47,740 nt of DNA from Sphaeroforma arctica JP610 (Eukaryota), in the NCBI RefSeq assembly GCF_001186125.1, contig NW_014039898.1:4483-52222 (forward strand), written 5' to 3'. Positions 9,590-47,740 of the stretch are shown here, piece after piece; the stretch's first letter is position 1, and each line of letters opens with the position of its first letter. The notes below the pieces were generated by a model. That model was not told the DNA's origin and did no database searches. It worked only from the letters and a program-made list of their open reading frames with translations. The translations under genes were made by a program, and so were the position numbers.

Positions 9590-9594
9590 TAACT

Positions 9595-12230: not shown

Positions 12231-12269
12231 GTTGTACTGTCTGTGTATCTATTGTACCCGGTAGTACCG

Positions 12270-15530: not shown

Positions 15531-16235
15531 GGTTTAGGCAACATGCCTTCCAATTTGATCTCATTAACACGTAGAAGTTCTGTCAGCTCGGTCTTGTCCG
15601 CTAATGGTCCATAAAATATGTTTTCTGAGTCCAGTCTACGTTTTAAATCTCCTATCGTCAGCTTTTTATACTGATTCTGCAATTTGGGCTTACCCCCAAA
15701 GAAGCCCTTGATTTTAGGACTGGTGATAATCATACGTTGATATCAATCGTATGTGATTACGTTTTGTCTTAAAATCTGCAGTGCTGCTCCTGAACTAACA
15801 CGCTTGCTAGTGTCGTCTACTCCCTGTACATAAAGTTGTACCAAACCTTTTCGTACCACGGCTGCAAAAGTTGCTTTCGGTTTTTGAAGGGGTTTCCTGG
15901 CCCATCGAGGTTGGACTATATTCAGCATCGTTTCGGGCTGTAATGGCTTCGTTTCTGATGAGACCTCATACAGTGTCGCCACCCCTTGTTGAAACCTATC
16001 CAGTGCGGAACTAATAGCATTAGCCTTTTCACCCACAATCTCCTTGTCTTTTATTACCGCTCCCTTACTTGATACAATCGGCTTCCACACTGCAGGTACT
16101 GGACTTTGATGGTGGTGTAATGACATTTTCCCTAAATCCGTGCGCGGTTGAAGACCTTCTGGCAAAGCCAATTCTTCAATCAATTCTGCCGGCGACTGGT
16201 GTTGAACGAGGTAGGAAATATATGATATGAGCGTT

Positions 16236-16378
16236 ACTTGTACTACTACTTGTATTTTTACTTCTAAAACTACTTGCACTTTTACTTCTACTACTACTTG
16301 CACTTTTGCTTCTACTACTACTTGCACTTTTGCTTCTACTACTACTTGCACTTTTGCTTCTACTACTACTTGCACTTT
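16236..16378. repeat. 24-bp tandem repeat, about 6 copies, possibly inside an intron
   Basis: TACTACTTGCACTTTTGCTTCTAC units. On the minus strand it is bracketed by GTATAT and a pyrimidine-rich CACCAG. Confidence 0.85.
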
Positions 16379-18504
16379 ATATACCCCGCTTTGTTCCGAT
16401 AGTTGTACATGTCGGAATCCATCCCATTCAATGTCATGAACGCGTGTCTTTCGCATAGCACTCTCGATCTGATATTTGTAGCTGTGATGTTCCGATAACG
16501 TGGTTCCAAAGTGAACAACCGGTTGTTCCACAAGTTTCCCCGGTATTCATTTTTCCCTATACAGTACAGTTTCTTGTTCTATCTCATGTTCCGACTTATA
16601 AACTTCAGACATAGATTTCTTAGCTTTTACCGTTACAAACCTTAAGGCCGAGGTAGTATCGTCAGAGCTCGGATCTTCGTGACCGCAGATCGCATGAATA
16701 GGACGAGCACAGCCTTTGCAGGTATGTTTTCCACCTTCGGGAACTACTAATGAATCACCAGGCTTTTCCCATTGTACCTGCTGCACAGTCTTCTCATCGC
16801 CAGTGCTAGAAGTATCTCCAGTGGCAGTATCTCCAGTGGCAGTATCTCCAATGGTAGTATCTTTAGTAGTTTGGACAACATAATTCACGATGGAATTGTC
16901 TCGCGGTCTAATAGCCACAGAGATATCAGTTATCCCTTCTTGGTCACATACTGCCCTGTATATATCTACAGGCGTACATATACTACCACCTTTGTTTGAT
17001 TTTACATCGTGGCCTTCTACAAATCGTTGTAGCACGATATTCACATACTCGAAATGTGTGTCAAGCGCTGTTTTCCCCGCTTGTGCCTCTGTAAAAATCC
17101 ATCGCGTTATCTTGAGCTTACCATCAGGTGATTGCATCTGAGGTGTAGTGGTGTAATGTAGGGAGTTGGAAAATGTGGATGTATTGTCTGACTGCATCAC
17201 TATACTGGTAATATTGGGCATCGTCTTCCGCACGTGGTAAAGTAGTGCTTCAATAGCGAGCACGACAGACGGTGCATCTTGTCCTCCGTTGTCGTCCGGT
17301 ATATAATAATAAAACAATGTCTGTAAGTGCTTGGTCGGTTCTTCGTCCCCAGATTGTACCTTGTATTCACCCCGCACGAGCATAAACCCTAGAAGAGACA
17401 TCCCTGATTTGCCAAAGTACTCACTTTGCCCTTCATTCTTTTTCATAGGAAGAATCTGCGAGTATGAATGGGATGGGTAGTATCAGAATTCACGACCGAT
17501 AAGGTGTGGGAGTGGAAGTAGTAAAACAGGTGTGAGGCTAGAAGTAGGATTGGAAGGTAAATATAAATACATTCCTTTTGTTTGTGATGTGTCAGGGTTG
17601 TCGGCTAGTCCAACTTCCAGTTTATCAATCGACCGTTGTTGTATCTCGGCCCGCATTTTGTGGCTCGCATTGTGTCTCGCAAAAGTAATAAATTCGATCT
17701 TCAACTGCTTACAGGCTTCCATCATACTTACAAATTCTTTAGGGTCGAAGTATTTTTCGAAGTTGTCCTTCAGTAATCCAGCGATTTTGCTGGGATAATC
17801 GTAGTACAATTCGCAAGCTATGCAAGATTTTGTGTGTTGATGTCCCCGTCCTGTGCACTCTCCGAATAATTGTTATGCCATGCAATGATGTATGCATTCG
17901 CTCTCTACTTCCTGGTGGTTTGCGAGTGTATATTTAACATGTTCCGCACTGCTATCCAATCCCAATCTCAGAATTTTGAGATCGGTCTTCAACTTCTTAA
18001 TCTTCTCGACGTTCTTCTCCTCACTATTAAGCATTTCGTGTACACATTCTACTACTGTACAAAATCCTGTGTAGTAGTAGGACAAGCCAGCGAGGCACGG
18101 TGATCTTCTCGTCAGCATATTTAACAGAAGATTAAAGGTATCTCTACCTATTTGGATGTCGCTCTTGATAGCACATTTATAGTGTTCATACAGACGGCAC
18201 AGACTATCCCCTCCTCTTAAGAACACAGATATATCTCTGAACAGATGTCCTCCCATTTTCATGTTCCGTAGTTGTCCGGGTCGGTGTTCTAGGTTAAAAT
18301 GTACCCAATACATGGCACCCATTAGTTTGTCCTGGGGAACCCTATATGAATACTTCTGCTGCGGCCTGTCCTTACCCCGTAAAGTGTATTTTTGGAAATC
18401 AGCTCGCAATCTCCGCCATTTGATAGGTCCAAGTTTCACCTTGTATTTGCGTTTCAAATCTAGACGCCTATCCTAATCATCAAACTCTTCTGCACCTCCC
18501 TCGT

Positions 18505-18715
18505 CATCGTTACCACTTCGACCCTTTGCGCCATCAGTAGAAGTTCTACTATTACCACTTCGACCATTTGCGCCGTCAGTAAAAGTTCTACTACTATCAC
18601 TTCGACTATTTGCGCCATCAGTAAAAGTTCTACTACTACCACTTCGACCATTAGCGCCATCAGTAAAAGTTCTACTACTATCACTTCGACCATTTGTGCC
18701 ATCAGTAGAAGTTGT
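18505..18715 (-). repeat. 42-bp coding tandem repeat (TFTDGANGRSGSSR), 5 copies
   Basis: Visible in ORF 18473-18787. Confidence 0.9.
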
Positions 18716-19491
18716 AGAAAAACGTCTCTTCCTCGAGTTTGTCGTATGTGTCGGGTCCATATGTAATAGACTCGACTCTGGGCACAAGAACTAATTCCGC
18801 TATCTTCAACCATTTGTGGTATTTCAACGTGTACTCGTACTGGTGTAGGAGCTATAAAATCCGCCCAACTTAGACTGCTACTCCTACTACTACTACTATC
18901 ACAACTATTTGATGGTAATTCAACGTGTACTCGTTTTGATCGTTGATTGTGCTTTCGCGTCTTGTTCTTGGTATTTCTATTCTGTGGCTTTGGAGTCTTA
19001 GTAAGTATCCCAGCGGTTTTTCGACTCTCCTTGTCCTTGTCCAGTGTCCGCTTCTCGTCCCTATTTATATCATCGCGCTTGGTTTCTACCATCTCCTTCG
19101 CCTCTTCCTGTTTTGTACAAGCAAAAATACTGCCAACCACATCTTTTTTATTCCTACCACCGACCACCATGACCTTCAGTGCTGCTTCTAAAAATAGCCT
19201 AGCCACATCATCCTTCCTATTCTGCTTCGTCATTTTCACTGCCTTCTGATCAATCACTTCACGCACACGATAAGGACTAGCATGGTTTATCGTATAGCAA
19301 AAACAATCTTTGACTGCGTTGTACTTTTGCACCACAAGTTTCTTGTGCGGTGTGTCTATGGCACCCTCTAAATGAGTTACTTTGCTGAATCTTGTAAGTG
19401 AAATATCAAGATTAGTCAGCATGTTCTTTACTCGCATATCTAAACATCGATTGTCATTTTTCGATAGATCTACCGGCTTTTCGCGTACACG

Positions 19492-19544
19492 TAGGGTTTT
19501 AGGGTTTAGGGTTTAGAACCCTAAACCCTAAACCCTAAAACCCT
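19492..19544. repeat. Head-to-head telomere-like repeat (TTTAGGG)n-(CCCTAAA)n
   Basis: Perfect 24-bp inverted arms 19493-19516 and 19521-19544 around a 4-nt AACC spacer. Confidence 0.9.
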
Positions 19545-21187: not shown

Positions 21188-21574
21188 TGTGGACAAAGTA
21201 CCCTAGGCGGATATTTAGGACCGGACGTGAGGACCGGATCAGGGGGAGGAATTTAGGACCGGACCAGAGGACCGGACCTAGGGGATTATTTGAGGTCCAG
21301 ACCAGAGGACCGGATCTAGGGGACTATTGGAGGACCGGACCAGAGGTCCGGACCGATTAGTGGAATAGAGAATTTAATGAGATAAAAGTGATGACTCATA
21401 CGAAACCATAGAGACGGGTATTTTCACATAACCCGATGGTAGAGAAAGTCTCGTTCCACATAGGATCGTGATTAATAAATATACCAGGCGCGCCATTCCC
21501 AATGGCACTTCTGACTGAGTTCACTTATTTCAGACTTAACACTCTTTACTAAGTGTTACTTGGTTTTGACCACA
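21188..21574 (+). repeat. 5' LTR of the non-coding LTR element
   Basis: Contains an array of GGACCGGA motifs and ATAAATATA. About a dozen substitutions relative to 29685-30071. Confidence 0.85.
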
Positions 21575-29684: not shown

Positions 29685-30071
29685 TATGGACAAAGTACCC
29701 TAGGCGGATATTTAAGACCGGATGTGAGGACCGGACCAGGGAGAGAAATTAAGGACCGGACCAGAGGACCGGACCTAGGGGATTATTTGAGGACCGGACC
29801 AGAGGACCGGATCTAGGGGACTATTGGAGGTCCGGACCAGAGGTCCGGACCGATTAGTGGAATAGAGAATTTAATGAGATAAAAGTGATGACTCATACGA
29901 AACCATAGAGACGGGTATTTTCACATAACCCGATGGTAGAGAAAGTCTCGTTCCACATAGGATCGTGGTTAATAAATATACCAGGCGCGCCATTCCCAAT
30001 GGCACTTCTGACTGAGTTCACTTATTTCAGACTTAATACTCTTTACTAAGTGTGACTTGGTTTTGACCACA
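29685..30071 (+). repeat. 3' LTR of the non-coding LTR element
   Basis: Direct repeat of 21188-21574, ends in CCACA, followed by GAAT. Confidence 0.85.
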
Positions 30072-30402
30072 GAATAGTTTGTGTGCAAATATATTCACAC
30101 CTTGTGTACGTTTCCTTTCGTGAAGGTATTAGTAGTTGAGTTAGTTAGTTTTCGTAGTTTTAGTTGTAGTGTAGAATGGCCTCATCTTGAGGTCGATGTT
30201 GTGTGCACTGAGTTCACTCTTTTCAGACTTAACACTCTTTACTAAGTGTTACTTGGTTTTGACCACAGAAAAGTTTGTGTGCAAATATATTCACACCTTG
30301 TGTACGTTTCCTTTCGTGAAGGTATTAGTAGTTGAGTTAGTTAGTCTTCGTAGTTTTAGTTGTAGTGTAAAATGGCCTCATCTGGAGATCGATGTTGTGT
30401 GC
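30011..30402. repeat. 196-bp tandem duplication spanning the LTR end and the THAP start codon
   Basis: 30011-30206 is repeated at 30207-30402. Confidence 0.9.
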
Positions 30403-30707
30403 TAGGATGTGGTTTACTAAATGGTGAAGAGGGTGTCACTCTGCATCGGTATAAACTGCAATGGGATTCAAGCCTGTCGGACCGTACGATGGTATATGCT
30501 TCGATGAGGGTATGTAGCAAACATCTCAGAGATGATCAAATGGATACTTTCAAGAAAGGAAAACGCCCGCGTATTAGGTGTGCTCCAGTTCTGCATCTAC
30601 CTGAACCTATTGTTGATCTAGTTGACGAAAAACCTTGCGATGTAAAAACGAACATGCAATCAGGGTTTACCTCATCCCGACAACCCGTTAGACACAGCCA
30701 ACACTGA
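30372..30707 (+). CDS. THAP zinc-finger domain protein (transposon-associated; may continue by frameshift to about 30888)
   Basis: MASSGDRCCVLGC..VTLHRY..W..MRVCSKHL..CAPVLHLP shows the C-x4-C, LH, W, CSxH and AP signature of THAP. Confidence 0.75.
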   Translation: MASSGDRCCVLGCGLLNGEEGVTLHRYKLQWDSSLSDRTMVYASMRVCSKHLRDDQMDTFKKGKRPRIRCAPVLHLPEPIVDLVDEKPCDVKTNMQSGFTSSRQPVRHSQH

Positions 30708-30888: not shown

Positions 30889-32048
30889 AAGCTTACTAAA
30901 AACCCCTAACCCTAAAAACCCTAAAACTCTAAAATCCTAAAACCCTAAAGCTTCAGCCCTTGGTAATGAGCTAAAGATTAGAGGATGGAAGACTGAGACT
31001 ATTGTCGTTATGACTCCGCTCTAATCACTCAATACTTCGGTCCAGATTTATTTGGTGTCAGTAAATAAAATCAGATTTCATTTCATTGGATATATGATAT
31101 TTCATTCTATATCATTCTATGCCTCGAAACTACGTTCCAATCGCAATTACCAATAAAACAACTCTAAGTCCAACTTAAGAAAAATATAAATAAAATCAAA
31201 AACACCATGCTGGTACAGTTAAATTATCTGTACCTATACCCCATCACATGGTACCTAGCTCTCCATCCCATTGAAGGCATAGACGGGCACATCTAGTTGG
31301 CCGGCTAGGGGGGATCTTATTCATGCTGAGAGTATTTGGTAGTACAACATGTGTCATCAAGTGTCAGTATCACCTGAGACTCGCCCAGTGTTGTATCCCA
31401 ATATTCTGATGGAAAAAATAAACATGTAGAAAAACCAGCATATCAATATCGACAGAGTCTCATTTCTCTGTCGTATACAATTATCAACAGAGTCTCATTT
31501 CTCTGTCGTATACAATTATAGTTCCAAATATACAAATTAGATTATTTGTCAATTATCTACAATTGCGTTTCAACGTATACCAGTTTTCATAACCGTAATA
31601 ACATTTGAACGATAATACATCACATGGTACCTAGCTCTCCATCCCATTGAAGGCATAGACGGGCACATCTAGTTGGCCGGCTAGGGGGGATCTTATTGAT
31701 GCTGAGAGTATTTGCTAATACAACATGTGTCATCAAGTGTCAGTATCACGTGAGACTCGCCCAGTGTTGTATCCCAATATTCTGATGGAAAATATACATG
31801 AAGAAAAACCATCATATCAATATCGACAGAGTCTTATTTCTCTGTCGTATACAATTATCAACAGAGTCTCATTTCTCTGTCGTATACAATTATAGTTCCA
31901 AATATACAAATTAGATTATTTGTCAATTATCTACAATTACGTTTCAACGTATATCAGTTTTCATAACCATAATAACATTTGAACGATAATACGTTTATAA
32001 TATACGTTAACATGTGCATCTACTATAGGAACCCGCTGATTTTGCACA
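30889..32048 (-). repeat. 3' LTR of Gypsy-B with internal 376-bp tandem duplication and telomere-like insertion
   Basis: Matches 38329-39048. 31242-31617 is repeated at 31618-31992. Confidence 0.9.
30896..30949. repeat. Degenerate telomere-like (CCCTAA[A/AA])n tract
   Basis: CTAAAAACCCCTAACCCTAAAAACCCTAAAACTCTAAAATCCTAAAACCCTAAA, absent from the 5' LTR. Confidence 0.85.
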
Positions 32049-32064
32049 GCCCCCCCCCCTCCTC
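32049..32064 (-). promoter_or_regulatory. Polypurine tract of Gypsy-B
   Basis: GAGGAGGGGGGGGGGC on the minus strand directly abuts the TG of the 3' LTR. Confidence 0.85.
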
Positions 32065-32229
32065 AGCTTGAAAATTACAATGTTGGCTTATATATATTTT
32101 GAAGCACATGTACTCAAAAAGCTCACATGAATTGTACAAGCGAAAAGAAGAAACAGGTTTCTATCATATAAAATGGCCTCAATGCTCATATTATACTCTC
32201 TTAGACGAAGTATACTTAGACCTTATAAG

Positions 32230-33739
32230 TTACTCGGTTACTCTATTACGTTTGGGTTTAGGTCCTTGAAGTCCCCGACGGGGGATGGGATGTTTCTGAG
32301 TACCTTTAGGGGGTACATACATTCCATATTCTTTGAAACTTGGAATGAATGGTGTCTGTGAATAAACCTTGACTACATCAGGACGATTGTTTGTAGGTAA
32401 GATTCTGTCCGCGTCTGCCTTATTCTTATGCAGGCGCTTACGAAACTTCTTATTAAAAGCTTTCAATACATCTGGATCATCGAATGCCGATGGAGGTAGA
32501 TCGTATTGTACGCCATCTGCAAACTCCGTGGTGTAGTAAGTATATCCTCATGTTTGTACTTCCCCAGAATTTTCTTAAATTCAATTAAAAGCTTTCAATA
32601 CATCTGGATCATCGAATACCGATGGAGGTAGATCGTATTGTACGCCATCTGCAAACTCCGTGGTGTAGTAAGTATATCCTCATGTTTGTACTTCCCCAGA
32701 ATTTTCTTAAATTCATATGACAAAAGAGGTGTAGTAGCTTCACGTGTGCGACGAAGGATGATTTCAGTCGTTGGGAATTCGATGTGATCCGATATTAAGA
32801 GCACTTGAACCGTCAACATTGTTAACTTCATAAGTTCCGCTCTTCTTATCGGCCACTGAACTCTTGAATGGTTTAATGTATTTAGCCGTAAGCACAGTTG
32901 TATCGGAGTTGCATCGCTTTTGTCTCTTCTTGAGCGCGATATCTTTCATCTCTCTCAGACAAGAAAAGACGACGTTTCTAGTACGACGCATCTTCTCTAA
33001 CCATGGTAACACATGATCTTCTTGAGAATCCTTGTTGAAAGGTATTTGTAGTTCACTATAACGGCCCCTAAAATAGTCAGCGGGTGTTGTACCAGTGACT
33101 GAATCCGGTGTCTCGTTCATTTGTGTCTGTACCCAGTTAATTGAATACGGCCACAAGTCAGCATCGTCTAGCAACGCTCCACGCATGAACTCCTTCATCT
33201 TTCTGTGTCGTACCTCATTCGCACCTTGTGTCTGAGGCTTGTAAAGTACACCCATTTTGTGGCATGATCCCGCAACGAGTAACAGCGTCGTCATGACGTC
33301 TCCTGTAAACTCACTACCGTTGTCGGTACATACTATAGCTGGCCAGCCGAAATCTGCGAAACACTTATAAATGCACTCAGCCACCGTTTGAGTTGATTTG
33401 TCTTTCAGAGGATATAGTACACTATATCTTGAAGCAACATCAAAAACGTGGTAGACATACTTGCCTTTCGTGTGTTTAGACGTGGGCAGCTCAACCAGAT
33501 ACACTCCGCAATGGGGCATATCCATAGCGCTTGATTCGGTTAACTTCGCAGTTGTTACATTCGTGATACACCTGAAATATATATTGCTTGCGCTTTGGGT
33601 GTACAATCCCGTATCTCTTGCAATCTTTCTCAGTCCGAACCTTATCCATGTGCTTAAGTGCATAATTCTGCCTTAACCACTTGAATATGTCACCCTCCGT
33701 TGATCTTGCTATATCAAAATCTGGAGGTGAGGAGTCCAC
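32230..33739 (-). pseudogene. Gypsy-B DDE integrase with C-terminal chromodomain-like region
   Basis: ECNNC zinc-finger end, VFDVASRY, CTDNGSEF, YKPQTQGANE. Tail YEFKKILGKYKH/GYTYYTTEFADG..FDDPDVLKAF. Several frameshifts. Confidence 0.9.
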
Positions 33740-34129
33740 TACTACATCACCTGGACTCGAAGACTCTTCTCGTCCAGTCTCGCCTGAAAGGTCGGCCGTG
33801 TGAATTCTACTAATGTTCTCTGTCCATTAGTTGAATTACATGGTCGTATACATCTGGAAAATCGTTCATCAACTGTTTGAGTAGCCTGGTCTCGGCCTCG
33901 TATGCAGTTTCTCTATTAGAACGTATCCTTTTGTAAAATGCCTTCTCTAATGATGAGTTCCTCTTTCAATTTTGTAGGTTCAGATTGTACCTCAGCAACG
34001 CATATCGCAGGTGCGTGTGTCACCCCAGCCTCTCGTTGAGACCTAATTGTCAAGAGTGGAATCTTGGATTCTTCGACCTTACGTTGGAAGGTCTCGGATG
34101 GTGTCCATTTGGTTTTACCAACTGGACCT

Positions 34130-34524
34130 ATACGACATATTATTGTATATCGCCAAGGAGTCTTCTGGACTACACGAATACCCTGGTAGAGGAAAGTATC
34201 TACCTCTCTATCCACATATATGGGCTCACATTGAATCATCGATATCAACTGTGGTAGCCACTTATCTGAATGTCTTAGGGGACAACACAACGTGCTGGTA
34301 GCATCTTGTATATGAACATAATTTAGCAACTGTGGTATCAACAACCACGGTGGATTCGCCCAGGCATTCTCATCAGTTAAATCGATTTGAAGCCCATCAC
34401 CGTCTGGATGTTGCGTACGGTATCGCGGCAGTTGCGCATTATGGTGTGCTGCAAACATATCAATGGTATTTGGTCCATATATGTTGTCTGCAATTTTAAA
34501 CCACCTAGGATTGGCTTTCCAATC
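34130..34524 (-). CDS. DIRS/Dam-type DNA N6-adenine methyltransferase domain, in frame after RNase H (within ORF 33916-34716)
   Basis: NHLPDMLSR (RNase H end) is followed by DWKANPRWFKIADNIYGPNTIDMFAAHHNAQLPRY..NAWANPPWLLIPQLL..TLCCP..WLPQL. Contains a SAM-binding-like DMFA motif and catalytic NPPW (34345-34356). No stops within the domain. Confidence 0.88.
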
Positions 34525-34539
34525 CGTAGCTAGCAAGTC

Positions 34540-36310
34540 CCGAACCATCTTATTGAAGTCCGGTACGAAGCGTGACAGCATATCCGGTAAATGATTATGT
34601 ATGCCCGGTATATGTGTTATGCTAAAGAAAACTTTGCGATCGTATCGTGCCATCGACTGACCAATTGTGAATTCGGGTTCATGTCCTTTAAATGTTGCAC
34701 CGATTTCTGATCGCACAGTACATTAAAATGTGTGCAGTAAAGATAGTCCTTAAAATGAGTGAGTGCGGTTACAATAGCTAGTAACTCTTGTTGCACGGTC
34801 GGATAATTGATCTGTGACGAGTTCATAGCTCTGCTAAAGAACTGCACGTATCTCGGTTCTCCGTCAATCATTTGATACAGAACGGCTCCTAATGCCATGT
34901 CGGATGAGTCTGTAGCCACTATGAAGGGTATTCCATCTTTTGATGGCTGGACTACTGGGGCTTGTTGAACCACTGTTTTGAGCTGCTTAAAGGCATCATC
35001 ACAGTCTTTGGTCCACAACGCTCCTAATTTGCCCTTGTGACATCTTAAATGTCCGAAAGGCTTCAAGTAGCTTGCCAGGTGTGGAACTCCGTCTGACAGG
35101 AAGTTAACAAAACCGCACATGCTGTTCACGTCCTTGCCTGTAGTGGGGGTTCTTCAGTCTAGTAAGTGTTCTACTTTTCCGGGGTCGATTATAATGCCTT
35201 CCCCAGATATACGATAACCCAACAACTGTATCTCGTTAACACCAAAATGACATTTCTTGCTGTTGATCTTAAACTTGTGTTTTTTAGCCTTGCCAGTACC
35301 TCTCTTACAACCCTGTCATGCTCCTCTTTAGTTTTAGTAAACACGACAATGTCATCGATATATACCTGAACATTATTCAGGCCTTGCATGATTTGTTGAA
35401 AGAAGACTGGTAGCATATGTAAACCAAAAGGGACTCTTTTAAAAGAATACTGCTGTCCATCCCAAGTGAAGGTGAAATACTTCCGATGTGGTTTGTATAT
35501 CGTCATTTGGTGGTAGCCTTGCTTCAAATCGATAGTCGAAAATATTTTCGTACCTTCCGTTCTTCTCAGCAATTCATTAATTCTTGGTAAATGGAAATTA
35601 TGTGTGGGTATAAGAGTTTTTAGAGGACTCATATCCAAACACATGCGAACCTTCTTTAACGTGTCATCAGAGTTGAACTGGTCTACAGCCAAGTGTGTCA
35701 GGTTGACAGGAGTAGGTTCGTAGTTGACTGCGATTACTCCGTTTTCCAACCATGTCTTCTTATTCTCGTACCACCTGTTCATGACGCCACGTTACGTAAT
35801 TGCGCGTTGGATATTTCAACTTCGAAAAGTCTAGTTTTATCAAATCTAAGCTCACATTCCGTTATTGAATTTAAACTGATCCCAGTCGGTGATCTTTATC
35901 TTGCTGTTCACAAAAATAAGATCCTTTAGCTTATCTGTATATTGGGGTATCATTTCCTTCACAGTCTTAGAAGGCTGGTATACAGGCTTCAGCAGAATAT
36001 CGTCTGACTGATCTTTCTGTGGGTCAATGTTCGTTGGCAAACCGGCAATTGTTATACCTAACGATAACAGCTCTCCCATCCCCACTATTAAATCGTAATC
36101 TGGCGAATCAATGTGGTCCGTTGATCTGCAAGGGTAAACCTTAAATCTACGGCCATGTCACGGCATATAATCCCCTTTTCGTCAGCTAATTTTAACACAG
36201 TAGGTTAAATACAGAATCTTGATGATAAACATGAAATTTGTTAGCCCGGATCCAGTAACGCTTTTATTTCATGCCCATTAACTCGTACATCCAGAATGAC
36301 ACGCTCATCT
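34540..36310 (-). pseudogene. Gypsy-B protease, RT and RNase H (frameshifted)
   Basis: LLDPG, RMCLDM, DLKQGYHQ, PFGL, YIDD, TDSSDMALGAVLYQ, NYPTVQQELLAIV. High similarity to Gypsy-A pol. Confidence 0.92.
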
Positions 36311-36329
36311 TGCGGTGCATCCTTTTGCT

Positions 36330-38215
36330 TCAGTGCCAAGATCCGGTATGATTGTCACTTAACTTCTACCTTCGGTTGCACCTTACATATGTGTTTGTGG
36401 TAACCTCCAGTCCCTTCGCAGTCTGCACACTTCGCGATAAAATGTTTACATTTTTCTGCGTGCCTGCCATTCCAGCGTCCATTCGGCTCATGTTGGGTCA
36501 TGCGCCAGCTGCAATCTGTCTCAGCACAGTCCTTGGTCTCCCTATATTTTGGTTTAGGAGGATCGGCTGCCTGATTAGATCTATTGGCATGGGTCCCGCG
36601 AGTGTTGACATTGTTCTTAAGACCATCAGTACCTTGCTTGGCCTAATGGCCTCCTCTGTCACCAACTTTGTTCCCCTTGTTATTTCAGTCTCGACCGGTA
36701 CCTGATCCTCCATTCGTGTTGGGTACCGTCTTCTTAATAGACGATGTGAATTTCACCACAGAACTCGGACGGTTCGAAAACGTCTGGTCTGCTCTCGAAT
36801 AATTTCAGTCCTTGTCAAGTCGGCGAGTTTTATGATGCCGTCAGTTGGCCCTTCAGTTGAAATCTCGCGTACTTTGTCCGGGAAAGATTGGTGTATATCT
36901 GCGTACAATACATTCTTGGTCTTTTCTATGCAGAGCCGACCAGAAAATAGTTTTTACCCACAGCACACACATACTCAGCTTGTCTCGCGACATTTCTTGT
37001 GGCTGAGCACGTGTTATATGAGTGTCCAGTTCCAAAAGGTAATGTGACACTGGTGTTCCTTCGTCCGGTGGTACCATTATTGATACCAATAATTCCGGTC
37101 TAGGATTGGTTGAGAACAGATGGACTATCATCTCGCTTTGCTCCTTCATGTATTTAGCTTTGTTATAGTAGCTCTAGCCTTCCCCAACTTATTATACTTA
37201 TAAGATGACGGCTTAAAACTCTGTTGCGCAGCCTCGAACCATAAGTTCTTACGTAAATTTGCAGTGAGCATAGTTTGACCAAATTCTTTCAAAGATCGCG
37301 ACAATAAAGCTAAATCACTCGTATCGATAGGGTCCTTACGGACTTTTCGATCCGAACGATACGTAAGGGGTAACTTACCTATGTCCTTGACGAACTTCTT
37401 ACTGTCCACTGACTTCTCGGCGTGTATAATGCGTAGCTCCGTATCAATCTTATATTGAAAGTGCCTCGCCATTGTTATTCTCAAACTGGCTTGCTCTAAC
37501 TTTCCTTGATCCATTGCTAGCATCACATCCTCTTTTGCATTGAGCATTCGAGCAGTGAAATCACAATTTTCTTGTCACTCTCTGAAATCTCATCAAATGG
37601 CGTGTCCATCTCCTTCAGTCCATGTAGTCACTGAATGTCTCCATCGTCACCGTCATCCTTTCGTGCCTTCTTGCGAGTCGTCATCGTCTTCTGCGTCTTC
37701 GACTGCTTGGCTGATGGCGGCAAGTTATCTGGTCAGTCTGGTTTTTCAAATTCCGGCGATGACTGATCCTCGTCTCCGCTAGAACTCTTAGACTTCTTTT
37801 CCAGCGTAAATTTTCGTTTGCCGATCTTCTTCCGGTCTTTGTATTCCTGGAATTCAGCCGCCGACTTTCGCAATTCGCGCAGGGAATCATCTGTGTCTCG
37901 GCCATCTGAATCTTCTCGTCCAGAGTCTGCCCCCTGTTCTGATTCAGATTCTGAAGCCCCTTTACCTTGTGGTATTAGGTCTCCCGGTCCTGATTCTGTC
38001 TGCTTTTGCTTCGGCATCTCCTTGGATTTCTTAGATTTCTTGGGCTTGGTCTTGCCCTTTGTAACGTCATCAAAATAATCCGCAGGCAAAGCGTGTGCCA
38101 TCATATTTGTCACAGCTTCGTCCGCTTACGGGTCAGGCGTCAAAGAGTGTTCCAAAGGCGTAACCTTCGGCTGGTTCTATTATGCCATCGCTTTTTCTTT
38201 ACCCTTCGTCATATA
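36330..38215 (-). pseudogene. Gypsy-B gag (frameshifted)
   Basis: Chain of minus-strand ORFs (37733-38113, 37146-37547, 36853-37149) ending in CAETDC..HAEKC and CADCEGTGGYHKHIC, located between the 5' LTR and the protease. Confidence 0.75.
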
Positions 38216-38328
38216 CTTCCGATAGCGTCTAAACTTAAAAACATGTAAATGTCAGACTAACCAGGCTGACTATCGGTTTCAATGAATTAACGTAAAAGAA
38301 AAGTAAGATTTTAAAGTAAATTGCACAA

Positions 38329-39048
38329 TGTAATTTTAAGTTTAGCTTCAGCCCTTGGTAATGAGCTAAAGATTAGGGGATGTAAGACTGAGACTATTGT
38401 CTTTATGGCTCCGCTCTAATCACTCAATACTTCTGTCTAAAAAAAAATTGGTGTCAGTAAATAAAATCATATCTCATTTCATTGGATGTATGATATTTCA
38501 TTCTATATCATTCTATGCCTCGAAACTACGTTCCAATCGCAATTACCAATAAAACAACTCTAAGTCCAACTCAAGAAAAATATAAATAAAATCAAAAACT
38601 CCATGCTGGTACAGTTAAATGTCAGTACCTATACCCCATCACATGGTACCTAGCTCTCCATCCCATTGAAGGCATAGACGGGCACATCTAGTTGGCCGGC
38701 TAGGGGGGGATCTTATTCATGCTGAGAGTATTTGGTAATACAACATGTGTCATCAAGTGTCAGTATCACGTGAGACTCGCCCAGTGTTGTATCCCAATAT
38801 TCTGATGGAAATTATACATGTAGAAAAACCATCATATCAATATCGACAGAGTCTCATTTCTCTGTCGTATACAATTATCAACAGAGTCTCATTTCTCTGT
38901 CGTATACAATTATAGTTCCAAATATACAAATTAGATTATTTGTCAATTATCTACAATTGCGTTTCAACGTATACCAGTTTTCATAACCGTAATAACGTTT
39001 GAACGATAATACGTTTATAATACTATAGGAACCCGCTGATTTTACACA
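38329..39048 (-). repeat. 5' LTR of Gypsy-B
   Basis: TGTAATTT...TTTACACA, homologous to 30889-32048. Confidence 0.9.
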
Positions 39049-40560: not shown

Positions 40561-43500
40561 GAATAATAATAAATTATTTCAAAAAAAGAAAAGTTACAAT
40601 GTATGTATATTACAATGAACATATGGTATGGATCTCATAGCCGTTGCAGTGGTTCGGGAAAGATCAATGGGAAAAAAGTGGTCAGTAAATTCCCGTTTGA
40701 AGCTTGGGCCAATTGAGTCGACGATAGAGGATATGCGCTGAGTCAATTCGGGCCGGTGCTGACAAAACACTGATACCATCGAATGTGCCATGTATTCGCT
40801 TGTTGACCTACTAGGTAGCGTACCACCTCTGTGATACGGATCGGGTCTGCGCCGTGTTATGCCGTGTGCTGGCTGGCCTGGATCGGAAGTATCATAGGCG
40901 GGACAGGACCAACAAGCGCGATGATTGGGTTGAACTGACATTTGGAAGTAGTACTTCAACGGCGTGATTGGCCGGGGTATGGGGAACATCTGTTGATGTG
41001 TCAGAGACGGGTGAGGGTACGGTGGTGCTTCTACATGTTGGAGAAAATATCCAAGGTGTTCGTGGAGGGTCCAGATACCGTGGAAGTCGTGGCACTCCTG
41101 TAACTGCTGAAGGAGGTAAGGGCCTATGGGCGGCAGTTTCGGGCCTACCAGGATGCGTCGAATCAGTTGTTGGATGCAGGTAAAGTGGCTAGTGGTGAAC
41201 TTGTGGCTACCGGGGCAGACAGGGCAGAGACAGCCGTCGGTGCGGTAGTCAAGCAATGTGAACATGTACGTATTCGTTGCAATCATAGCACAGAGCCGGA
41301 TTGATGTAGGCTCGAGGCAGCGGTTGAAGCTGTCGTGTCTGGCTTTGTCTCGGTTTGAGGTTGGCGGTTTACCCATAACCAGTTGGTAGTAGTATTGACG
41401 CCGAACCTTTGCCGCGATCTCCTTGTTGGACCAGCGGTTTGTTGAGTTCTTCCTGATGTCGTCACGGCGTTGGAGGAGGGCTACATGGCCAGGTGTACGC
41501 CCGCACGTGGTTTTGTGTACAGTTTTCAGGTGAGCATAAATACTGTACGGGAAGCGCAGTGAAGGTTTGTCGTGGGCCCAGGCGGGTTGCGTCAGAGGGG
41601 TGAGTGGATTTGTGCTGGCCATTGAGTCGAGTTATATTCCCAGGCAACCTCTGAGGTAGTCCGCGAATGGTCGCGCGGGAAGCAGGCCACAAAAGTGGAG
41701 TAAGTTTAATTGATGTTTGGGAAACCGAGGGTATTTAGCGCCCGTGATGATGGCTGATGCTTGGATGCGTACTGAGTTAAAGCGCTCGAACAGGGAGTCC
41801 AACGCATCCTTCCATATAGGCGGAGCCCAGGCGATAATGTTCAGGCCATATGTAGCCGTGGAAAGGATGAATGCTTTGAACAGCACCAGTCGGTTGCGGG
41901 GGTGTCGCCAGCTGAAGCCATGGGAGCCATAAGCGCGGAAAAGGGCGATACCCAGAGACAATGCTGCAACCAGGGATTGCATATGTCTGGCGAGGTTTAT
42001 CCCTGGTATTCCGTGAGAGAGTGGGAACCCTGGATATTTGGAGTGTTTCGGTTTGGCATGTGTGGGCGTCATCTTCAGGGGGAGAAAACGTCTGTTCCAA
42101 GGTGCGTCTGCAAGCGTCGGCGTGATAAGCTCACCATTTAAACGGAGGGTTGGCGCCGCGTGTCGCAAGTCGGTAGATCGCACTCGGGGTTTAATGACAC
42201 TTTGTTCGAGGCCGTCATCTAAGAAGGGCTGGAGCGGAACCGATTGAGGGGCTTGGATTCGTGTGTCATCGACAAATAAATAAGATCGGAGGAGCTTGGG
42301 CCGAAATTGTGCTAACTTGACAGCTAAGGAATCCATGTAGATAGTAAAGAGCTGGGGCCCGACGATTGAGCCTTGTAGGATTCCATTCGTTCTATGGAAT
42401 AGAGGCGAGAGCGTGCAGCGGTATGTCACTCGGGTAGGGACCCTCTCAAATAGCGCGCGGAGGCAGTTGATCCAGTTTTCGGGCATTCCAGCGTGGCGCA
42501 GGAGTACCCATAGTTGGGTATGACAGGAGTACCGTGATTTGAAGCCAGCTTGGGTAGCGTAGGTAGCAGTTTTCAAAGTTGCGTCTGACTATTTGCGTAA
42601 GCGTGATGGGGCGGAAGTCGGTGGGGGAGGTGATATCTGCATCGGCTATCTTTGGGTGCGCTGTCAGGAGGCTGCAGGGAAGGGCTGCAGGGAAGGTACC
42701 CGCCTTCAGTACCTCAGTGAATGCTTCGGCAAGGAGTATAAGCAGTGGGCTTGTGGCATCGGGGCGTCCAAATGTCCGGCGTTCGGTGGAGCGCTCCACT
42801 GCGGCCTTCAGGAGGAGGATGTGGATCCCGTCGGGATAACTTCCATTACATCGTCGGGGCATATGGTGGAAGTGACATCGGGAGAGGGTTCAGTATCCGG
42901 CGGAACCACGTACGGGTTTGTAGAGTTGAATAGGTCCTCAGAGTAGCCAGCGAGAGTGGCGCCTGTGTCACCGGTACCCGGTATGCAGGGTTGGCGCGGC
43001 GACCGTCGTTGGTACGCAATATCTTTGAACATTTGAGCATTGCTTTGGGCGGTCAGACGTGGGCGGAACGAGTGGTTTGGCAGCCGCTGAACCCAGGGTC
43101 TGTTTAAGTCATAGTAGAATCCTCCGAAGATTTGTGGGTTAGCGGCATAGCGCCAGATGCGGTCGAAGATCCGTAGCAGCCCTTCCGCTGGTCCGTACAA
43201 AGAGAGATACGACCGTAGTAGGTTCTGATGACCCCGGATTTCGGCTTGGAATAGTCGCGCGCGGGATTTGTTGCGTAGGTGAACAGTCGATGGCGATATC
43301 GGTTATATCCATGGGAGGGGAGACGTTGGTCCGGAGGCGGCGGCATTGCTGGCATTTGTTGGGGCCGATGGATTTGATTCGTAGAAATTATCTGGAGATC
43401 GAGTCCAAAGGTGTGGTCACCACAGATACCGTAGTCCGTCAGCTTATAAGTTTGGAGGGAGGCGGGGGTGGTAGGTCGATGATACGCATGTTCAGTACCA

Positions 43501-45480
43501 GTTGAGCCGCCAGCATAAAGGTAGTCCAAGTGCCACTTATTATGCAGAGTAGTCTCAATCGTTTTCATACGTAGTCCGTGATTTGTAGATGCGTGGCCAT
43601 ACTTCCGGGCTTTTAAGATGAAATCTCCCCACACGACATCTGGTTGGAAACCGCCAATCTCGGGGGGATTCATGTATCGCCTGACGTCTTCTTCAGTAAG
43701 CGATTTGAGTGGAAAGTAGAACACGGCCATATGAACGCCAAAGCACACAAAGAACACTGCGTACGGTGAAGAGTGTACAAGTTGAAAATTCGATGGGTGG
43801 TCTTTGGAAACGATGCCAATACCACAGTGTGAAGGGTGTAAGGTCTTATGCCGTGTAGTGTGATGTAGAATATGGTAGTGTGTGTTCGAGCGTACATGAT
43901 TAAGAAATGTGGCGTTATGCCAGAATTCAACCACACACATAACATCAACCTGACTTAAAATCGATACAACGTTCAAACACTTGTCTGTATGTACTGCGTT
44001 GTCCATGTTGAGTCCTTGTGGGTTGAAGAGCGTCATCCTCATTGGTCCTAACATTGTTCATCCTCGGTCAATACTACTGGGCTCTCTTCTTTAACGATGT
44101 CAGCCATTTCTATATCGTTGCCTGTCGACGAAGAGTCTGTCGTGGAAGGTTGAGGCAGCGTATTGGTAACCATCGTGTCGGATGGTTGTGTCGGGAAGAC
44201 CGTTGGTATATGAAGTCGTCCGGGTTCCGCACGCGCTGGTTCTTTAGCGTTTGCTGGGATTCGCGGGTTAGGTGAGAATAGTTTTGCATCATGTTTTGCT
44301 TGGCAAGCCTTCTGGACACGGTCCGTGGTAGATCGGAGGATGTCTGCGTTAGTAGAGTTTGCAAGGGGGCTCAGTAGTGCATCCATGCTGCGGGCAAGAA
44401 TTTTTGGCGCTCGTTCATGTGTGCAGCGGGCCTCCCACTTGGTGCGGAGATAGTGGATTAAGACTGCTTTCATAGCGTCGGGATGTTGTTGGGAGTGGGG
44501 GTCGATATTTTCCACGTAAGTGCTGCATGTCGTTTCACCTGGGCGACAGACAAAGGCGGACGAAACTGATGGAGCTTCCGCGATTTTTCAAATACTGAAT
44601 GGGATGGGGGCTTGCCGTTAGGGAAAATTGCTCGGAAGAAGAGCCATACCAGAGTTATGTCATCCATTTCATAAAGAGTTTTGTCCGGCATCGGGCGGAC
44701 CACCACTTTCGTCAAAAGGTGTTCGGGTACTGGCGGCTGCGGTAGGGACTGAGAAACTGGTGGGGTCGGGTGTTTTTAGGGCTCGGGTTTTCAGGTTTGT
44801 CCACTTTTGAGCGGTAGCTGGGAGGCTCACTGCTGCTATTGGGCGCCTGTGACCGTGGTCGTTTTGCTGGCCGAGCAGACGGGCTTGTGGAGCCAAATCG
44901 GAAAGTGTCGGGTGTGTCTTCATCTATTGGTGCACGGGTTTGGGATTTAAGGTCCTGGAGTTCGGATTCGAGGTTGTTTACTTTTGCACAGAGGTTAGTG
45001 AGCATTTGGTGCATGGTTGATTTCCATTGGTCATCAGTCAAAGGCTTCTTGAAGATGTGTTCATCATTGTTCGGGGTTGGTAGAGGCGGTCCCAAAATTT
45101 GATTGAGATTGGCCTGTAGTGTATTGACCTGGGCAGAGACGTCTATGATAGATTTTGTAAGTCCAATTTCCATTGGTCATTGGGCAAGGAGTCCTTGAGG
45201 ATGAACGCCTCAGTTGAGGATTCGGCCTGGCCGACATTTTTCACGGCTGTGGGACTGTGGGACCCCAGGCTCCCTACTAGATTTTTTGTTTTTTTTGTTT
45301 GAAAATACAAATTTCAAGTCTGGTATTTATGCGAATTTTGGTGGGGTCCGTGGGATTTTAGAAAAAACCCTCTACACTGGTAACCTGCTGGTCACCGAGA
45401 TTTACGTTTCGGAGACGAGAATTTGAATCAAAGGTCCGTCGTGAAAAAATATATTTGGGGGAGTGAAAAATAAATATCGG
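40561..45480 (-). mobile_element. Non-LTR retrotransposon (LINE; ORF1 plus APE-RT-Zn ORF2), full length but inactivated, nested in transposase B
   Basis: ORF1 fragments 44048-45173. APE motifs FNPQGL, CVVEFW, WGDF, GDH. RT motifs DFRPITLT, QAGF, GILQGS..P, LFVDD. CPVC..H..C. TTA-rich 3' tail. The flanks rejoin transposase B (ALEGVVL|RIKKQFP). No clear TSD. Confidence 0.88.
40594..44054 (-). pseudogene. LINE ORF2 (APE endonuclease, RT, zinc finger)
   Basis: ORFs 43104-44054, 42808-43200, 42446-42862, 41632-42576 and 40594-41622. The RT segment carrying the first catalytic Asp (D..KAFD) is missing between QAGF and LWVLL. Confidence 0.88.
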
Positions 45481-47740
45481 GAAGTACCACACCCTCGAGA
45501 GCCGTCTGAACACTTTCGGCGTTCTGGTTATGATCTGTATTGATCATTTCTTAGTACCTACATTTTATAAAAAGAAAGAAATATATAATTTTGGTGCAGT
45601 GCACGTGATATTTTGAAATATAACCAACAAATGGATACATACTCTGTTTTTATGGGACCTCCCACCTCGTCCCTATATGAAATTGCCGCGCCGAGAAGAC
45701 TATGTCCCTTCTTCCCGAAATACTTTGTCATATCTTCGTAATGCCATTGACTTAAGATTTTCTGTTTGTGGTCTATAATAATGTGTAGTGTCTCCGTGTC
45801 AAGAGTCTCTTTAACTTTCTCAATGTGGTGATCCTGCCAGCTTCCCCTCGCGGTGTGGTTTTGGAAACGAAGGATTTCGCTCGATATGATCGTTAGAACC
45901 GGCAGTATTGATGCAAGGTCCACGAATGATAGTTCCTTCCCGCAGTCAGTTGTAATTGGCTCTATACCTTCTGGAGGTGATACGAAAGATTGGAAGTCTA
46001 GACTACGTCCAGATCTGGCATGTCTGTACTTACTGGATCGGTAGTAGCTGCCTCATGCTGCGTCCTGATGCGATCTACCACAATCTCCGCAGCCCTTGTA
46101 GTAAGACTTCCACGGATATGTTTCCCGATACGTGGTATCAATGATAGCATTTGTAAACACCTTCTACACTTAAATTTATGCGTTTTAGTGCACTTGTCAC
46201 CACCCATGGCTCGTTCAAGGCAGTGGAATAAGTCCCCATCGCATTTGGTATGGTCGTGTGTACAATGTTTTGCATAATCCCGCTTTATGAAGGTCTGCAA
46301 CACCTTTACCTCCTTTTCAAATAGTCCTCATTATTTACAAAATAGCAACAAGAAGTCTGTGTTATTCATAAATGTGGTGAAATAGTGCGATAGTCCCACA
46401 TGTTGTTTTGCCTCCTTTGTGACCATGTCCAACATGACATAAAAGGAACTCTTGCCTATCTGTTTGTACGCATTAGTTGATGTAGGCGTAGTGAGAGTGA
46501 GGGTTTGGTTGGCTGTGGTGGACAGATGTGCACGAGGTGTGTGCTCGCCGAAATACTTATCATATGCTCTTCACATAACGTCCTTACTATATTTACGTAA
46601 CATGTAAGGTATGTCTTTCAGACGAGCGTCCAGATAGCGTGGGTTTCGTAATTGTCCTGCTATAAATCCAGTAATCATGTCTGATGTGGTATGTATCCAA
46701 TTCAATGTGTATAGAAAACTCACAGACTCCTTCTAATTGTAACGAATAGGGGGTGAGATTGATTGTGTCAGAGCTCCAGATAAATAGTACAATATCCAAG
46801 CGCATAGTTAGAAATCTTTATAAATAGAAATAACTTCTTACCCTGGCTTTATATGTTCCTCGCTCAGACAAATTCTCCCCTCGAAGAGATCTTCCGTATC
46901 ATTCTCCAAATTTCGAGCTCGGTGTTGACACTTTATTTTCTGGTTGATCTCCTGATTCTGTTGCTCGCGGCGTAGTGCGCGACGGGCTCGACTCAAAGCG
47001 GGCTGTCGCATCTGAAAGTGTGTCTTTCACTTTGTTCGTGATATCAAGTTTGGTTTGAGCTCCATCATTCAAAAACTCATAAAGAGTGCATACTCGACAT
47101 ATAGAACTACATCCAGTGCGAACAGCTAAATCCGCAACCGTGTTTATATGCCTCATATCTTACTCTTTCTCGGATTGATTCAGAACGAGCCTATACAATA
47201 GATCACTCGCTTGTGTATCTTTGAACGATATAATTTTCACCACTTGCTCACTAGCCCGCGTATGTTACTAATCAACGAGTCTCTTTTGGGCGTTTTTGTC
47301 TCCATTGCTGCATATGAAACCTGATAGACGAAAGGACGTACTGTGTCACCAAGAAATTCGTACAATTTATCTATCTTAGCATTACAGATGCCATCATCAT
47401 CTTTTGCTTTGTCTCGTTCTGCTGCGGCCAGAATATCGACGTCACTAAAATGAATCAGTTCCTGTTCACGTAGCGAGCGTCGGACCGGTCCTTGATTCTG
47501 AGCGCACTAACCTCTTCTTCGTTTGTTATTCTTTTGACCTTTCTGGTTTGTTGTTTGACAACAGCATTGACTATCTAAACACAAGTATGTTTCGTCGTTA
47601 ACGCTCGGCGTTTCGCATCCAAGACATCGTTTACACTCATCACACTGGCCCCGATCGTGACGGTGGGTTGCAACAGGACATGGCCAATATGGATCATCCT
47701 GCTGTTGTAGTAAACACATCAAAATACGATACTAAACCTA
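45481..47740 (-). pseudogene. Sola3-like transposase B, N-terminal and central part (continues beyond the window)
   Basis: IIIDHKQKILSQWHYEDMTKYFGKKGHSLLG, DHNQNAESVQTALE, and Cys/His-rich HCTHDHTKC..HKFKCRRC parallel copy A. Several introns and frameshifts. Confidence 0.75.

What the first reader, a model, noticed from the sequence alone, without database searches (positions are those of the whole stretch)
30889..39048. Ty3/Gypsy LTR retrotransposon encoding its own DNA N6-adenine methyltransferase between RNase H and a DDE integrase
Seen: the element has TG..CA LTRs, a PPT, Gypsy-type RT/RNase H, a DDE integrase and a chromodomain-like tail. Right after the RNase H end (NHLPDMLSR) the same frame carries DW..GPNTIDMFAAHHNAQL..NPPW..CP..W (34130-34524) with no stops. 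Established: this Dam-like MTase in exactly this post-RNase H position is a hallmark of DIRS1-group tyrosine-recombinase retroelements and is not part of the canonical Gypsy PR-RT-RH-IN order. NPP(Y/W/F) is the amino-methyltransferase catalytic motif. Inference: a Gypsy lineage acquired the module, probably from a DIRS element by exchange at the RNase H end. It may methylate its own cDNA or integration site, for example to mimic host 6mA activity marks or evade silencing, while the chromodomain steers targeting. I cannot confirm from the sequence that this architecture is undescribed.
Basis: partly seen in the sequence, partly recalled or inferred. Interest (0 to 1): 0.92.

Follow-up and report, generated by a model that had tools for sequence, protein, structure and literature searches.

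The report
Broken Gypsy retrotransposon carrying adenine methyltransferase
This is a broken copy of a Gypsy-type jumping gene, likely from the single-celled animal relative Sphaeroforma, that carries an adenine-methyltransferase-like domain which may mark new copies as active; the design is real but a 2026 preprint already described it, and the only addition here is a likely worn-down chromodomain at the integrase tail.

Summary
The observation largely holds. A minus-strand LTR element has the order PR-RT-RNase H-Dam-integrase. The Dam domain hits Pfam PF05869 (E 1.7e-6) and keeps NPPW. This copy is dead (frameshifts, stops), and its 3' LTR lacks the CA end. Two intact relatives carry the same order in one ORF, with the methyltransferase as conserved as RT (66% against 63%). 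RT is Gypsy-type. RT and methyltransferase both group with Abeoforma whisleri elements, and the methyltransferase's wider kin are DIRS domains. Sphaeroforma arctica holds the same family.

This is the 'Ichthyosporean DAM-LTR' lineage of bioRxiv 10.64898/2026.05.21.726589, so the architecture is known. The scan has noted Dam-bearing Gypsy elements 23 times on other DNA.

One addition: the preprint says this lineage lacks chromodomains, but a divergent one with an eroded aromatic cage is likely present. Direct tests on this family alone were not significant.

The likeliest mechanism, inferred only, is seeding 6mA on the element's own cDNA. No activity has been shown, and the preprint's E. coli assay was negative.

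The parts
38329..39048 (-). 5' LTR, 720 bp, TGTGT...TTACA
   Evidence: contigs of other loci join at 38329 (table 8); an identical 977-nt contig bridges the outer junction in 3 of 4 runs
36355..38125 (-). decayed gag-like region, ending in a Cys/His cluster also seen in the second element
   Evidence: translations; no Pfam hit at E<0.1 in the 3 ORFs scanned; the gag label is inferred from position
36214..36387 (-). aspartic protease remnant
   Evidence: tblastn of P0002 residues 20-50 and P0124 residues 13-72; those regions hit protease families
35267..35800 (-). reverse transcriptase core (YIDD 35351-35362), frameshifted near 35290
   Evidence: PF00078 E 1.4e-18
34570..35015 (-). Gypsy-type RNase H; frameshift near 34620-34635, last residues in the methyltransferase frame
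   Evidence: PF17919 E 2.1e-30, PF17917 E 1.2e-27
34130..34524 (-). Dam-like (PF05869) N6-adenine methyltransferase domain, open frame; IDMFAAHHN 34438-34464, NPPW 34345-34356
33497..33730 (-). integrase zinc-binding (H2C2) region, separate frame
   Evidence: tblastn of P0001/P0002; weak PF17921 in those relatives
33000..33504 (-). DDE integrase core; second Asp (CTDNG) and Glu (GANE) present, first Asp reads Tyr in this copy
   Evidence: PF00665 E 2.6e-10
32767..32960 (-). SH3-like barrel of the integrase C-terminus, partly deleted
32422..32717 (-). degenerate chromodomain-like tail, split by a frameshift and a 132-bp tandem duplication (32452-32583 / 32584-32715)
   Evidence: direct profile tests on this family not significant
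32050..32064 (-). polypurine tract
   Evidence: sequence
30949..32048 (-). 3' LTR with a 376-bp internal duplication; about 4% diverged from the 5' LTR (K2P 0.041 over 704 columns); last ~15 nt including CA absent
30896..30948 (-). degenerate TTTAGGG-like tract in place of the LTR end
   Evidence: sequence; covered by a 767-nt contig in 3 of 4 runs

Best explanation
This is a dead copy of a Ty3/Gypsy LTR retrotransposon of the ichthyosporean DAM-LTR lineage, whose intact relatives encode a Dam-like domain between RNase H and integrase that likely came from a DIRS element and would put N6-methyladenine on the element's own new DNA, so that fresh insertions would be read as active chromatin.

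Shown here: the anatomy, the decay of this copy, the single-ORF order in relatives, constraint on the domain, and its grouping with Abeoforma elements (identity of the element: about 0.9). From the preprint: DAM-LTR insertions of S. arctica and A. whisleri carry more 6mA and more transcripts than other LTRs.

Inferred: the domain rides into the particle as part of Pol, methylates adenines on the cDNA or the RNA-DNA intermediate, and host AMT1 maintains the mark after integration (about 0.5). The tail is likely a chromodomain remnant (about 0.85). Its cage is incomplete, so binding of methylated H3K9 is unlikely.
For: Architecture: P0001 and P0002 are single ORFs of 1376 and 1400 aa with RT-RH-Dam-IN (P0002 also PR).

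Constraint: identity between them is RT 63%, RH 72%, methyltransferase 66%, integrase core 57%, linker 24%. Between the two elements of this window the methyltransferase remnant gives dN 0.25 and dS about 1.8 over 87 codons; RT has dN 0.25 with dS saturated.

Catalytic motif: NPP(W/F/Y) in 119 of 159 stored proteins that match the domain, redundant cluster members included.

Trees: RT puts the family (4 rows, SH-aLRT 98) in a 13-row clade with Abeoforma P0123/P0124 (95), apart from 8 DIRS-type RTs (99). The methyltransferase tree recovers the matching set (15 rows, 94) beside DIRS-type domains. The best solved relative of P0001 is Ty3 Pol, E 3.4e-71.

Host: S. arctica protein SARC_02119 matches the window's non-conserved linker at 74-92%.

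Preprint: 6mA and expression enrichment, and co-occurrence with AMT1 in 9 of 13 species.
Against: No methylation activity has been shown. The preprint's DAM-LTR, DIRS and adintovirus proteins did not raise 6mA in dam-deficient E. coli. The enrichment is a correlation and could follow from transcription. One of the two intact relatives (P0002) has CPPW in place of NPPW, yet is equally conserved. Iyer et al. place the DIRS domain in the PCIF1 clade and call it likely inactive. The Pfam match of the window domain only just passes the cut-off and covers profile positions 7-72 of 169. Both trees are quick LG+G4 searches with SH-aLRT only. The RT tree is rooted on DIRS alone, so it shows the clade on the Gypsy side but not nested among other Gypsy lineages. 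The host was inferred from named homologues, not read from a record.
Confidence: 0.5

Rival explanations
1. Same element, but the domain is a non-catalytic or weakly catalytic module. It binds nucleic acid, SAM or a host factor (for example by mimicking PCIF1 at RNA polymerase II), or it supports Pol folding and processing. The 6mA on DAM-LTRs is laid by host AMT1 because the elements are transcribed.
For: CPPW in the intact, equally conserved P0002. 40 of 159 matching proteins lack NPP(W/F/Y). Negative E. coli assay. Iyer et al. judge DIRS domains likely inactive.
Against: NPPW is kept in the window copy, in the remnant of the second element, in P0001 and in the three Abeoforma proteins. The DxFA motif is nearly invariant in 29 aligned relatives.
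Confidence: 0.27
2. Same element, but the enzyme methylates RNA, as PCIF1 does at the cap-adjacent adenosine (recalled). It would mark the element's own genomic RNA or primer region for stability, translation or packaging, not DNA.
For: Iyer et al. group the DIRS domain with PCIF1. The third Atlas hit for the window domain is a cluster named PCIF1 (0.93). Relative P0140 has a weak PCIF1_WW hit over its methyltransferase region, E 5e-4. An RNA substrate would explain the negative DNA assay.
Against: The preprint's tree nests eukaryotic retroelement domains among prokaryotic DAM sequences and reports DNA 6mA enrichment. The window domain's family hits are DNA methyltransferases.
Confidence: 0.2
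3. The order is an accident: a DIRS fragment nested in an ordinary Gypsy copy, or a mis-assembly.
For: The window is full of nested, broken elements. One S. arctica gene model (P0003) joins this family's methyltransferase end to a DIRS-type RT fragment.
Against: The same in-frame order occurs in P0001, P0002 and Abeoforma P0124 and in further clade members. A second, diverged element of this window has the same junction. RT and methyltransferase trees recover the same clade. No tyrosine recombinase family hit in the element's 10 scanned ORFs.
Confidence: 0.02

Closest known systems
Ichthyosporean DAM-LTR lineage (Pirum gemmata, Abeoforma whisleri, Sphaeroforma arctica); Fernandez-Moreno et al., bioRxiv 10.64898/2026.05.21.726589
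   Same: Gypsy RT with a DIRS-derived Dam domain; groups with Abeoforma proteins in both trees; the same family is in S. arctica.
   Different: The preprint's text says the lineage lacks chromodomains. Here a divergent chromodomain is likely in this family and clearer in Abeoforma P0124 (26.5 bits against a profile of 14 canonical retroelement chromodomains). The text does not give the Dam position for this lineage; figures and supplements were not visible.
DIRS1-like retrotransposons (RT-RH-MT pol plus tyrosine recombinase); Piednoel et al., PMC3266345
   Same: Methyltransferase directly after RNase H, with the same motif series.
   Different: Direct LTRs, PPT, protease and DDE integrase in place of inverted repeats and a recombinase; RT only 20% identical to the DIRS locus L001 over 177 residues.
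Chromoviruses (Ty3/Gypsy with an integrase C-terminal chromodomain), in particular group II chromodomains; Novikov et al., PMC3350952
   Same: Domain in the same place (289-290 residues after the rve start, against 265-315 in 14 relatives), with a predicted three-strand-plus-helix pattern. Cage residues 1 and 3 are eroded, as in group II.
   Different: No Pfam Chromo hit; the loop after the central Trp is 3 residues shorter, and the Trp reads Phe in this family. The paper says group II was known only from plant elements. Descent from plant group II is not claimed.
PCIF1 clade of N6A methyltransferases; Iyer et al., PMC4738411
   Same: That paper places DIRS1 methyltransferase domains in this clade; weak PCIF1 signals here.
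   Different: No WW domain; embedded in a Gypsy Pol; substrate unknown.

Membership tests
Ty3/Gypsy LTR retrotransposon | pol order PR-RT-RH-IN | tested here: met
Ty3/Gypsy LTR retrotransposon | RT on the Gypsy side, not DIRS | tested here: met
   tree; profile scores 219.5 (Gypsy) against 82.8 (DIRS) for P0001; Ty3 Pol E 3.4e-71
Ty3/Gypsy LTR retrotransposon | direct LTRs starting TG, 5' LTR ending CA | tested here: met
   the 3' LTR end is damaged in this copy; the second element's outer LTR is TG..CA
Ty3/Gypsy LTR retrotransposon | polypurine tract | tested here: met
   32050-32064
Ty3/Gypsy LTR retrotransposon | primer-binding site | tested here: inconclusive
   no TGG directly after the 5' LTR, and no 7-nt or longer complement in the LTR for self-priming; host tRNAs not available
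Ty3/Gypsy LTR retrotransposon | target-site duplication | tested here: inconclusive
   TATTT on both sides, chance rate 25%; a 4-bp GTTA duplication flanks the solo LTR of the related second element
Ty3/Gypsy LTR retrotransposon | DDE integrase | tested here: met
   PF00665; triad intact in P0001/P0002, first Asp altered in this copy
Ichthyosporean DAM-LTR | Dam (PF05869) domain in an LTR element with Gypsy RT | tested here: met
Ichthyosporean DAM-LTR | Dam domain groups with Abeoforma/Sphaeroforma/Pirum elements | tested here: met
   the next three hits after P0001 are Abeoforma whisleri proteins; 15-row clade, SH-aLRT 94; Pirum not sampled
Ichthyosporean DAM-LTR | ichthyosporean host | tested here: inconclusive
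   no genome held; S. arctica proteins match the family, 74-92% in the linker; likely S. arctica or a close relative
Ichthyosporean DAM-LTR | no chromodomain detectable at Pfam level (descriptive feature in the preprint) | tested here: met
   no PF00385 hit at E<=1 in the window ORFs, P0001, P0002, P0123-P0125; a degenerate one shows by more sensitive comparison, also in Abeoforma
Ichthyosporean DAM-LTR | 6mA enrichment and raised expression | not testable with these tools
   needs long-read modification calls; no run on record as RNA
DIRS1-like retrotransposon | methyltransferase after RNase H | tested here: met
DIRS1-like retrotransposon | tyrosine recombinase in place of integrase | tested here: not met
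   rve integrase present; no recombinase family hit in 10 element ORFs or in P0001/P0002
DIRS1-like retrotransposon | inverted terminal repeats | tested here: not met
   termini are direct repeats
Chromovirus | chromodomain homologue at the integrase C-terminus | tested here: inconclusive
   for; direct tests not significant; judged likely (about 0.85)
Chromovirus, group I chromodomain | three-residue aromatic cage | tested here: not met
   position 1 is His/Ser in P0001/P0002 (Tyr in the window copy), position 2 Phe, position 3 falls in a 3-residue deletion (cage as defined)
N6-adenine methyltransferase (PF05869 type) | DxFA motif and NPP(Y/W/F) catalytic motif | tested here: met
N6-adenine methyltransferase (PF05869 type) | Rossmann-like methyltransferase fold | tested here: inconclusive
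N6-adenine methyltransferase (PF05869 type) | methyl transfer to DNA adenine | not testable with these tools
   the preprint's heterologous assay was negative

The most novel reading that the evidence does not exclude
The ichthyosporean DAM-LTRs are cryptic chromoviruses. Their chromodomain lost its H3K9-methyl cage, independently of plant group II, in the clade that took up the Dam domain, and now steers integration to active, 6mA-marked chromatin. Writer and reader would then work as one 'insert into active chromatin and mark it active' module, not the chromodomain-free element of the preprint.
Probability: 0.15. Interest if true: 0.6.

Novelty: already known. Interest (0 to 1): 0.25.

Why it matters
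As a kind of element it is striking, but the credit lies with the May 2026 preprint, which named this lineage and profiled 6mA in S. arctica. What the domain methylates, if anything, is still open. This work adds natural single-ORF members for that test, one with NPPW (P0001) and one with CPPW (P0002). It also adds a likely correction: the lineage keeps a cage-eroded chromodomain that Pfam misses. That would bear on how the preprint counts chromodomain-bearing against chromodomain-free DAM-LTRs and on its targeting model. The window copy itself is dead and ordinary.

Tried and rejected
- Whole-genome copy search and copy-level dN/dS: no genome is held.
- Fold of the methyltransferase: pLDDT 45 and no meaningful structural match. 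Sequence searches of solved structures with 3-row and 29-row profiles found nothing at E<=10.
- Chromodomain by direct methods: Pfam none; a profile of 14 canonical chromodomains gave at most 2.7 bits on the family, against 6.3 as the best of 1000 shuffles; hhalign 0.3%, although only the two windows on the tail aligned over more than 14 columns; PDB sequence search no relevant hit. The three fold searches were filled by the upstream SH3-like barrel and did not test the chromodomain part.
- Expression: no RNA holder listed; this says nothing either way.
- Summed contig depth was not used as a copy number.
- ApT content shows no excess in the element: observed/expected 1.0 internal, 1.13 in the LTR, 1.21 in a host ORF. 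Uninformative.
- Self-priming or tRNA-type primer site: not found.
- Metagenome contig scan: 1 of 250 pattern matches was a relative, a DIRS element.
- Earlier scan notes: none on this genome and none by sequence.


Full report
OBSERVATION. The element lies on the minus strand. The frame 33916-34722 is free of stops and carries the RNase H end (HIPGIHNHLPDMLSR), then DWKANPRWF, IDMFAAHHNAQL, NPPW, CCPLR and TPWRYT. Pfam gives Dam PF05869 at E 1.7e-6, just over the cut-off, with RT, RNase H and integrase hits in neighbouring ORFs in Gypsy order. PHROG 111 (DNA methyltransferase) matches 3 of 3 aligned members. The Atlas' first and third hits (0.95, 0.93) are clusters in which 11% and 27% of members carry PF05869. 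The core observation is real and not chance.

ANATOMY AND STATE OF THIS COPY. The 5' LTR is 38329-39048 and runs TG..CA. Contigs with long unrelated flanks join the LTR at 38329. The 3' LTR (30949-32048) is about 4% diverged, holds a 376-bp duplication and lacks its last ~15 nt, which are replaced by a TTTAGGG-like tract. A purine tract precedes it. The proposed target-site duplication is a 5-mer found in 25% of random 100-nt stretches, and no primer site was found. Pol is broken: protease, RT, RNase H core, methyltransferase, zinc region, integrase core and tail fall in different frames with stops, and the first integrase Asp reads Tyr. Contig depth was not read as copy number.

INTACT RELATIVES AND CONSTRAINT. 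P0001 and P0002 are single ORFs with RT-RH-Dam-IN, P0002 also with protease. Between them the methyltransferase is 66% identical, RT 63%, RNase H 72%, integrase core 57% and the linker 24%. A second, diverged element in this window has the same junction, interrupted by a solo LTR. Its methyltransferase remnant gives dN 0.25 and dS about 1.8 over 87 codons against the first element. So the domain has been under purifying selection. P0002 has CPPW in place of NPPW.

PHYLOGENY. The profile search found 2850 representatives at E<=0.001. Of the best 150, 16 have a Gypsy-type RT (2 of them marginal), 55 a DIRS-type RT (one is the chimeric model P0003) and 79 no RT in the record. The next three hits after P0001 are Abeoforma whisleri proteins. 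The RT tree used 49 rows that I chose: 4 of this family, 13 other Dam-bearing Gypsy-type proteins, 24 Dam-less relatives and 8 DIRS-type. It gives a 13-row clade of this family plus 9 Dam-bearing elements, including both Abeoforma RTs (SH-aLRT 95), apart from DIRS (99). The methyltransferase tree used 62 rows, with the first 40 DIRS-type hits only. It recovers the matching set (15 rows, 94), while other Gypsy-borne domains fall elsewhere among DIRS-type ones, as expected from several captures. Both are quick searches with weak deep branches. They do not name a donor, and the RT tree has no outgroup beyond DIRS. The one metagenome locus found is a textbook DIRS element by its RT-RH-MT frame and an overlapping frame with recombinase-like motifs (motifs recalled, not scanned). 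It aligns to P0001 across the RNase H end and methyltransferase at 28%, and across RT at 20%.

HOST. No genome is held. Two S. arctica proteins match the family, one of them at 74-92% in the non-conserved linker. The host is likely S. arctica or a close relative; this is an inference.

THE TAIL. Against a chromodomain: no Pfam hit, and direct profile tests on the family are not significant. For one: (i) it lies 289-290 residues after the integrase core start, against 265-315 in 14 relatives with a Pfam chromodomain; (ii) the model of P0001 shows an SH3-like barrel and then three strands and a helix, at pLDDT 54-70 over that part; (iii) 21 of 30 Atlas hits are Chromo clusters, best 0.92 with 184 shared features, a measure not calibrated for parts of proteins; (iv) clade members bridge the gap. 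Abeoforma P0124 scores 26.5 bits on the canonical profile, and 4 of 10 clade proteins have sub-threshold Pfam Chromo hits. A profile of 8 clade tails matches the canonical set at 98.7% by hhalign and scores P0002 15.6 and P0001 9.3 bits, against 5.4 as the best of 1000 shuffles; the broken window fragment reaches only 5.6. Seven of those 8 tails were picked because they aligned to the family's tail profile, so the last test is partly circular. The cage is eroded: position 1 His/Ser/Tyr, position 2 Phe, position 3 deleted. This resembles plant group II chromodomains, which lack residues 1 and usually 3 (PMC3350952, passages seen).

HOW IT LIKELY WORKS. Shown: a conserved methyltransferase-type domain inside Pol. 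From established retroelement biology (my knowledge): Pol is packaged with the RNA and stays with the cDNA until integration, so the domain is placed to act on the element's own nucleic acid. From the preprint: DAM-LTRs occur mostly in AMT1-encoding species, and in S. arctica and A. whisleri their insertions carry more 6mA and more transcripts than other LTRs. Inferred: the domain seeds 6mA on cDNA or hybrid, and AMT1 maintains it (0.5). Rivals are a non-catalytic module (0.27) and a PCIF1-like RNA methylase (0.2). Both draw on the negative E. coli assay, on CPPW in P0002, and on Iyer et al., who group DIRS domains with PCIF1 and call them likely inactive (PMC4738411, passages seen). An artefact is excluded (0.02).

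WHAT IS KNOWN. bioRxiv 10.64898/2026.05.21.726589 (seen: parts 1-4 of 5 of the text, section 20 and passages; figures and supplements not visible) claims the first report of Dam domains in non-DIRS LTR elements. It names an ichthyosporean lineage in Pirum, Abeoforma and S. arctica, derives the domain from DIRS and proposes the same 6mA model. The DIRS order RT-RH-MT is in PMC3266345 (passages seen). Searches for earlier or other reports of the Gypsy form listed no other paper on it by title or abstract; the library lacks most subscription journals. PMC5890265 (cytosine methyltransferases in retrotransposons) was seen as a listing only. The scan's own notes hold 23 findings with these words in at least 3 other genomes, and the 8 shown reach the same preprint; I had found it before that look-up.

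VERDICT. What is left is a likely cage-eroded chromodomain that the preprint's text denies for this lineage, and a natural NPPW/CPPW pair for testing activity.

Noticed in passing
window 9210-13970 (-): A second, diverged family of the same kind: outer LTR 13237-13970 (TG..CA), gag-like ORF and a nearly intact PR-RT-RH. A solo LTR of its own family (9594-10406, 86% alike) sits in the RNase H-methyltransferase linker with a 4-bp GTTA duplication. A methyltransferase remnant with NPPW follows (9323-9592), then an inverted piece of the tail (9210-9320, +).
   Followed up: yes
window 30896-30948: Degenerate TTTAGGG-like repeats replace the last ~15 nt of the 3' LTR; possibly telomerase-type healing of a break or of the cDNA end (untested).
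   Followed up: partly
P0139 and P0195: Polyproteins of 2144 and 2382 aa with an endonuclease/exonuclease/phosphatase domain, a Dam-like domain placed before RT, then RT, RNase H and an integrase zinc region: a different and odd architecture.
   Followed up: no
P0214: A 776-aa protein with dUTPase directly before a Dam-like domain.
   Followed up: no
P0002: Intact relative with CPPW in place of NPPW but undiminished conservation of the domain.
   Followed up: partly
window 40594-45176 (-): Decayed LINE-like element (endonuclease E 0.002, RT E 8e-4).
   Followed up: partly
window 5284-6852 (-): 522-aa host-like ORF with several hydrophobic segments and a weak RGS hit at its end (E 0.05); resembles a 7TM-RGS protein (recalled).
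   Followed up: partly
window 30366-30707 (+), with repeats at 29687-30402 and 21190-21574: THAP-like fragment (E 0.005) next to the element, within a repeat that recurs at 21190; probably a DNA transposon remnant.
   Followed up: no
window 15743-19512 (-) and 45558-46327 (-): Broken ORFs of an unidentified transposon-like kind with acidic motifs and tandem repeats; only a weak SCAND3-like zinc finger hit.
   Followed up: no
P0003 (S. arctica SARC_08637): Gene model joining this family's methyltransferase end to a DIRS-type RT fragment; probably a nested-insertion artefact.
   Followed up: partly
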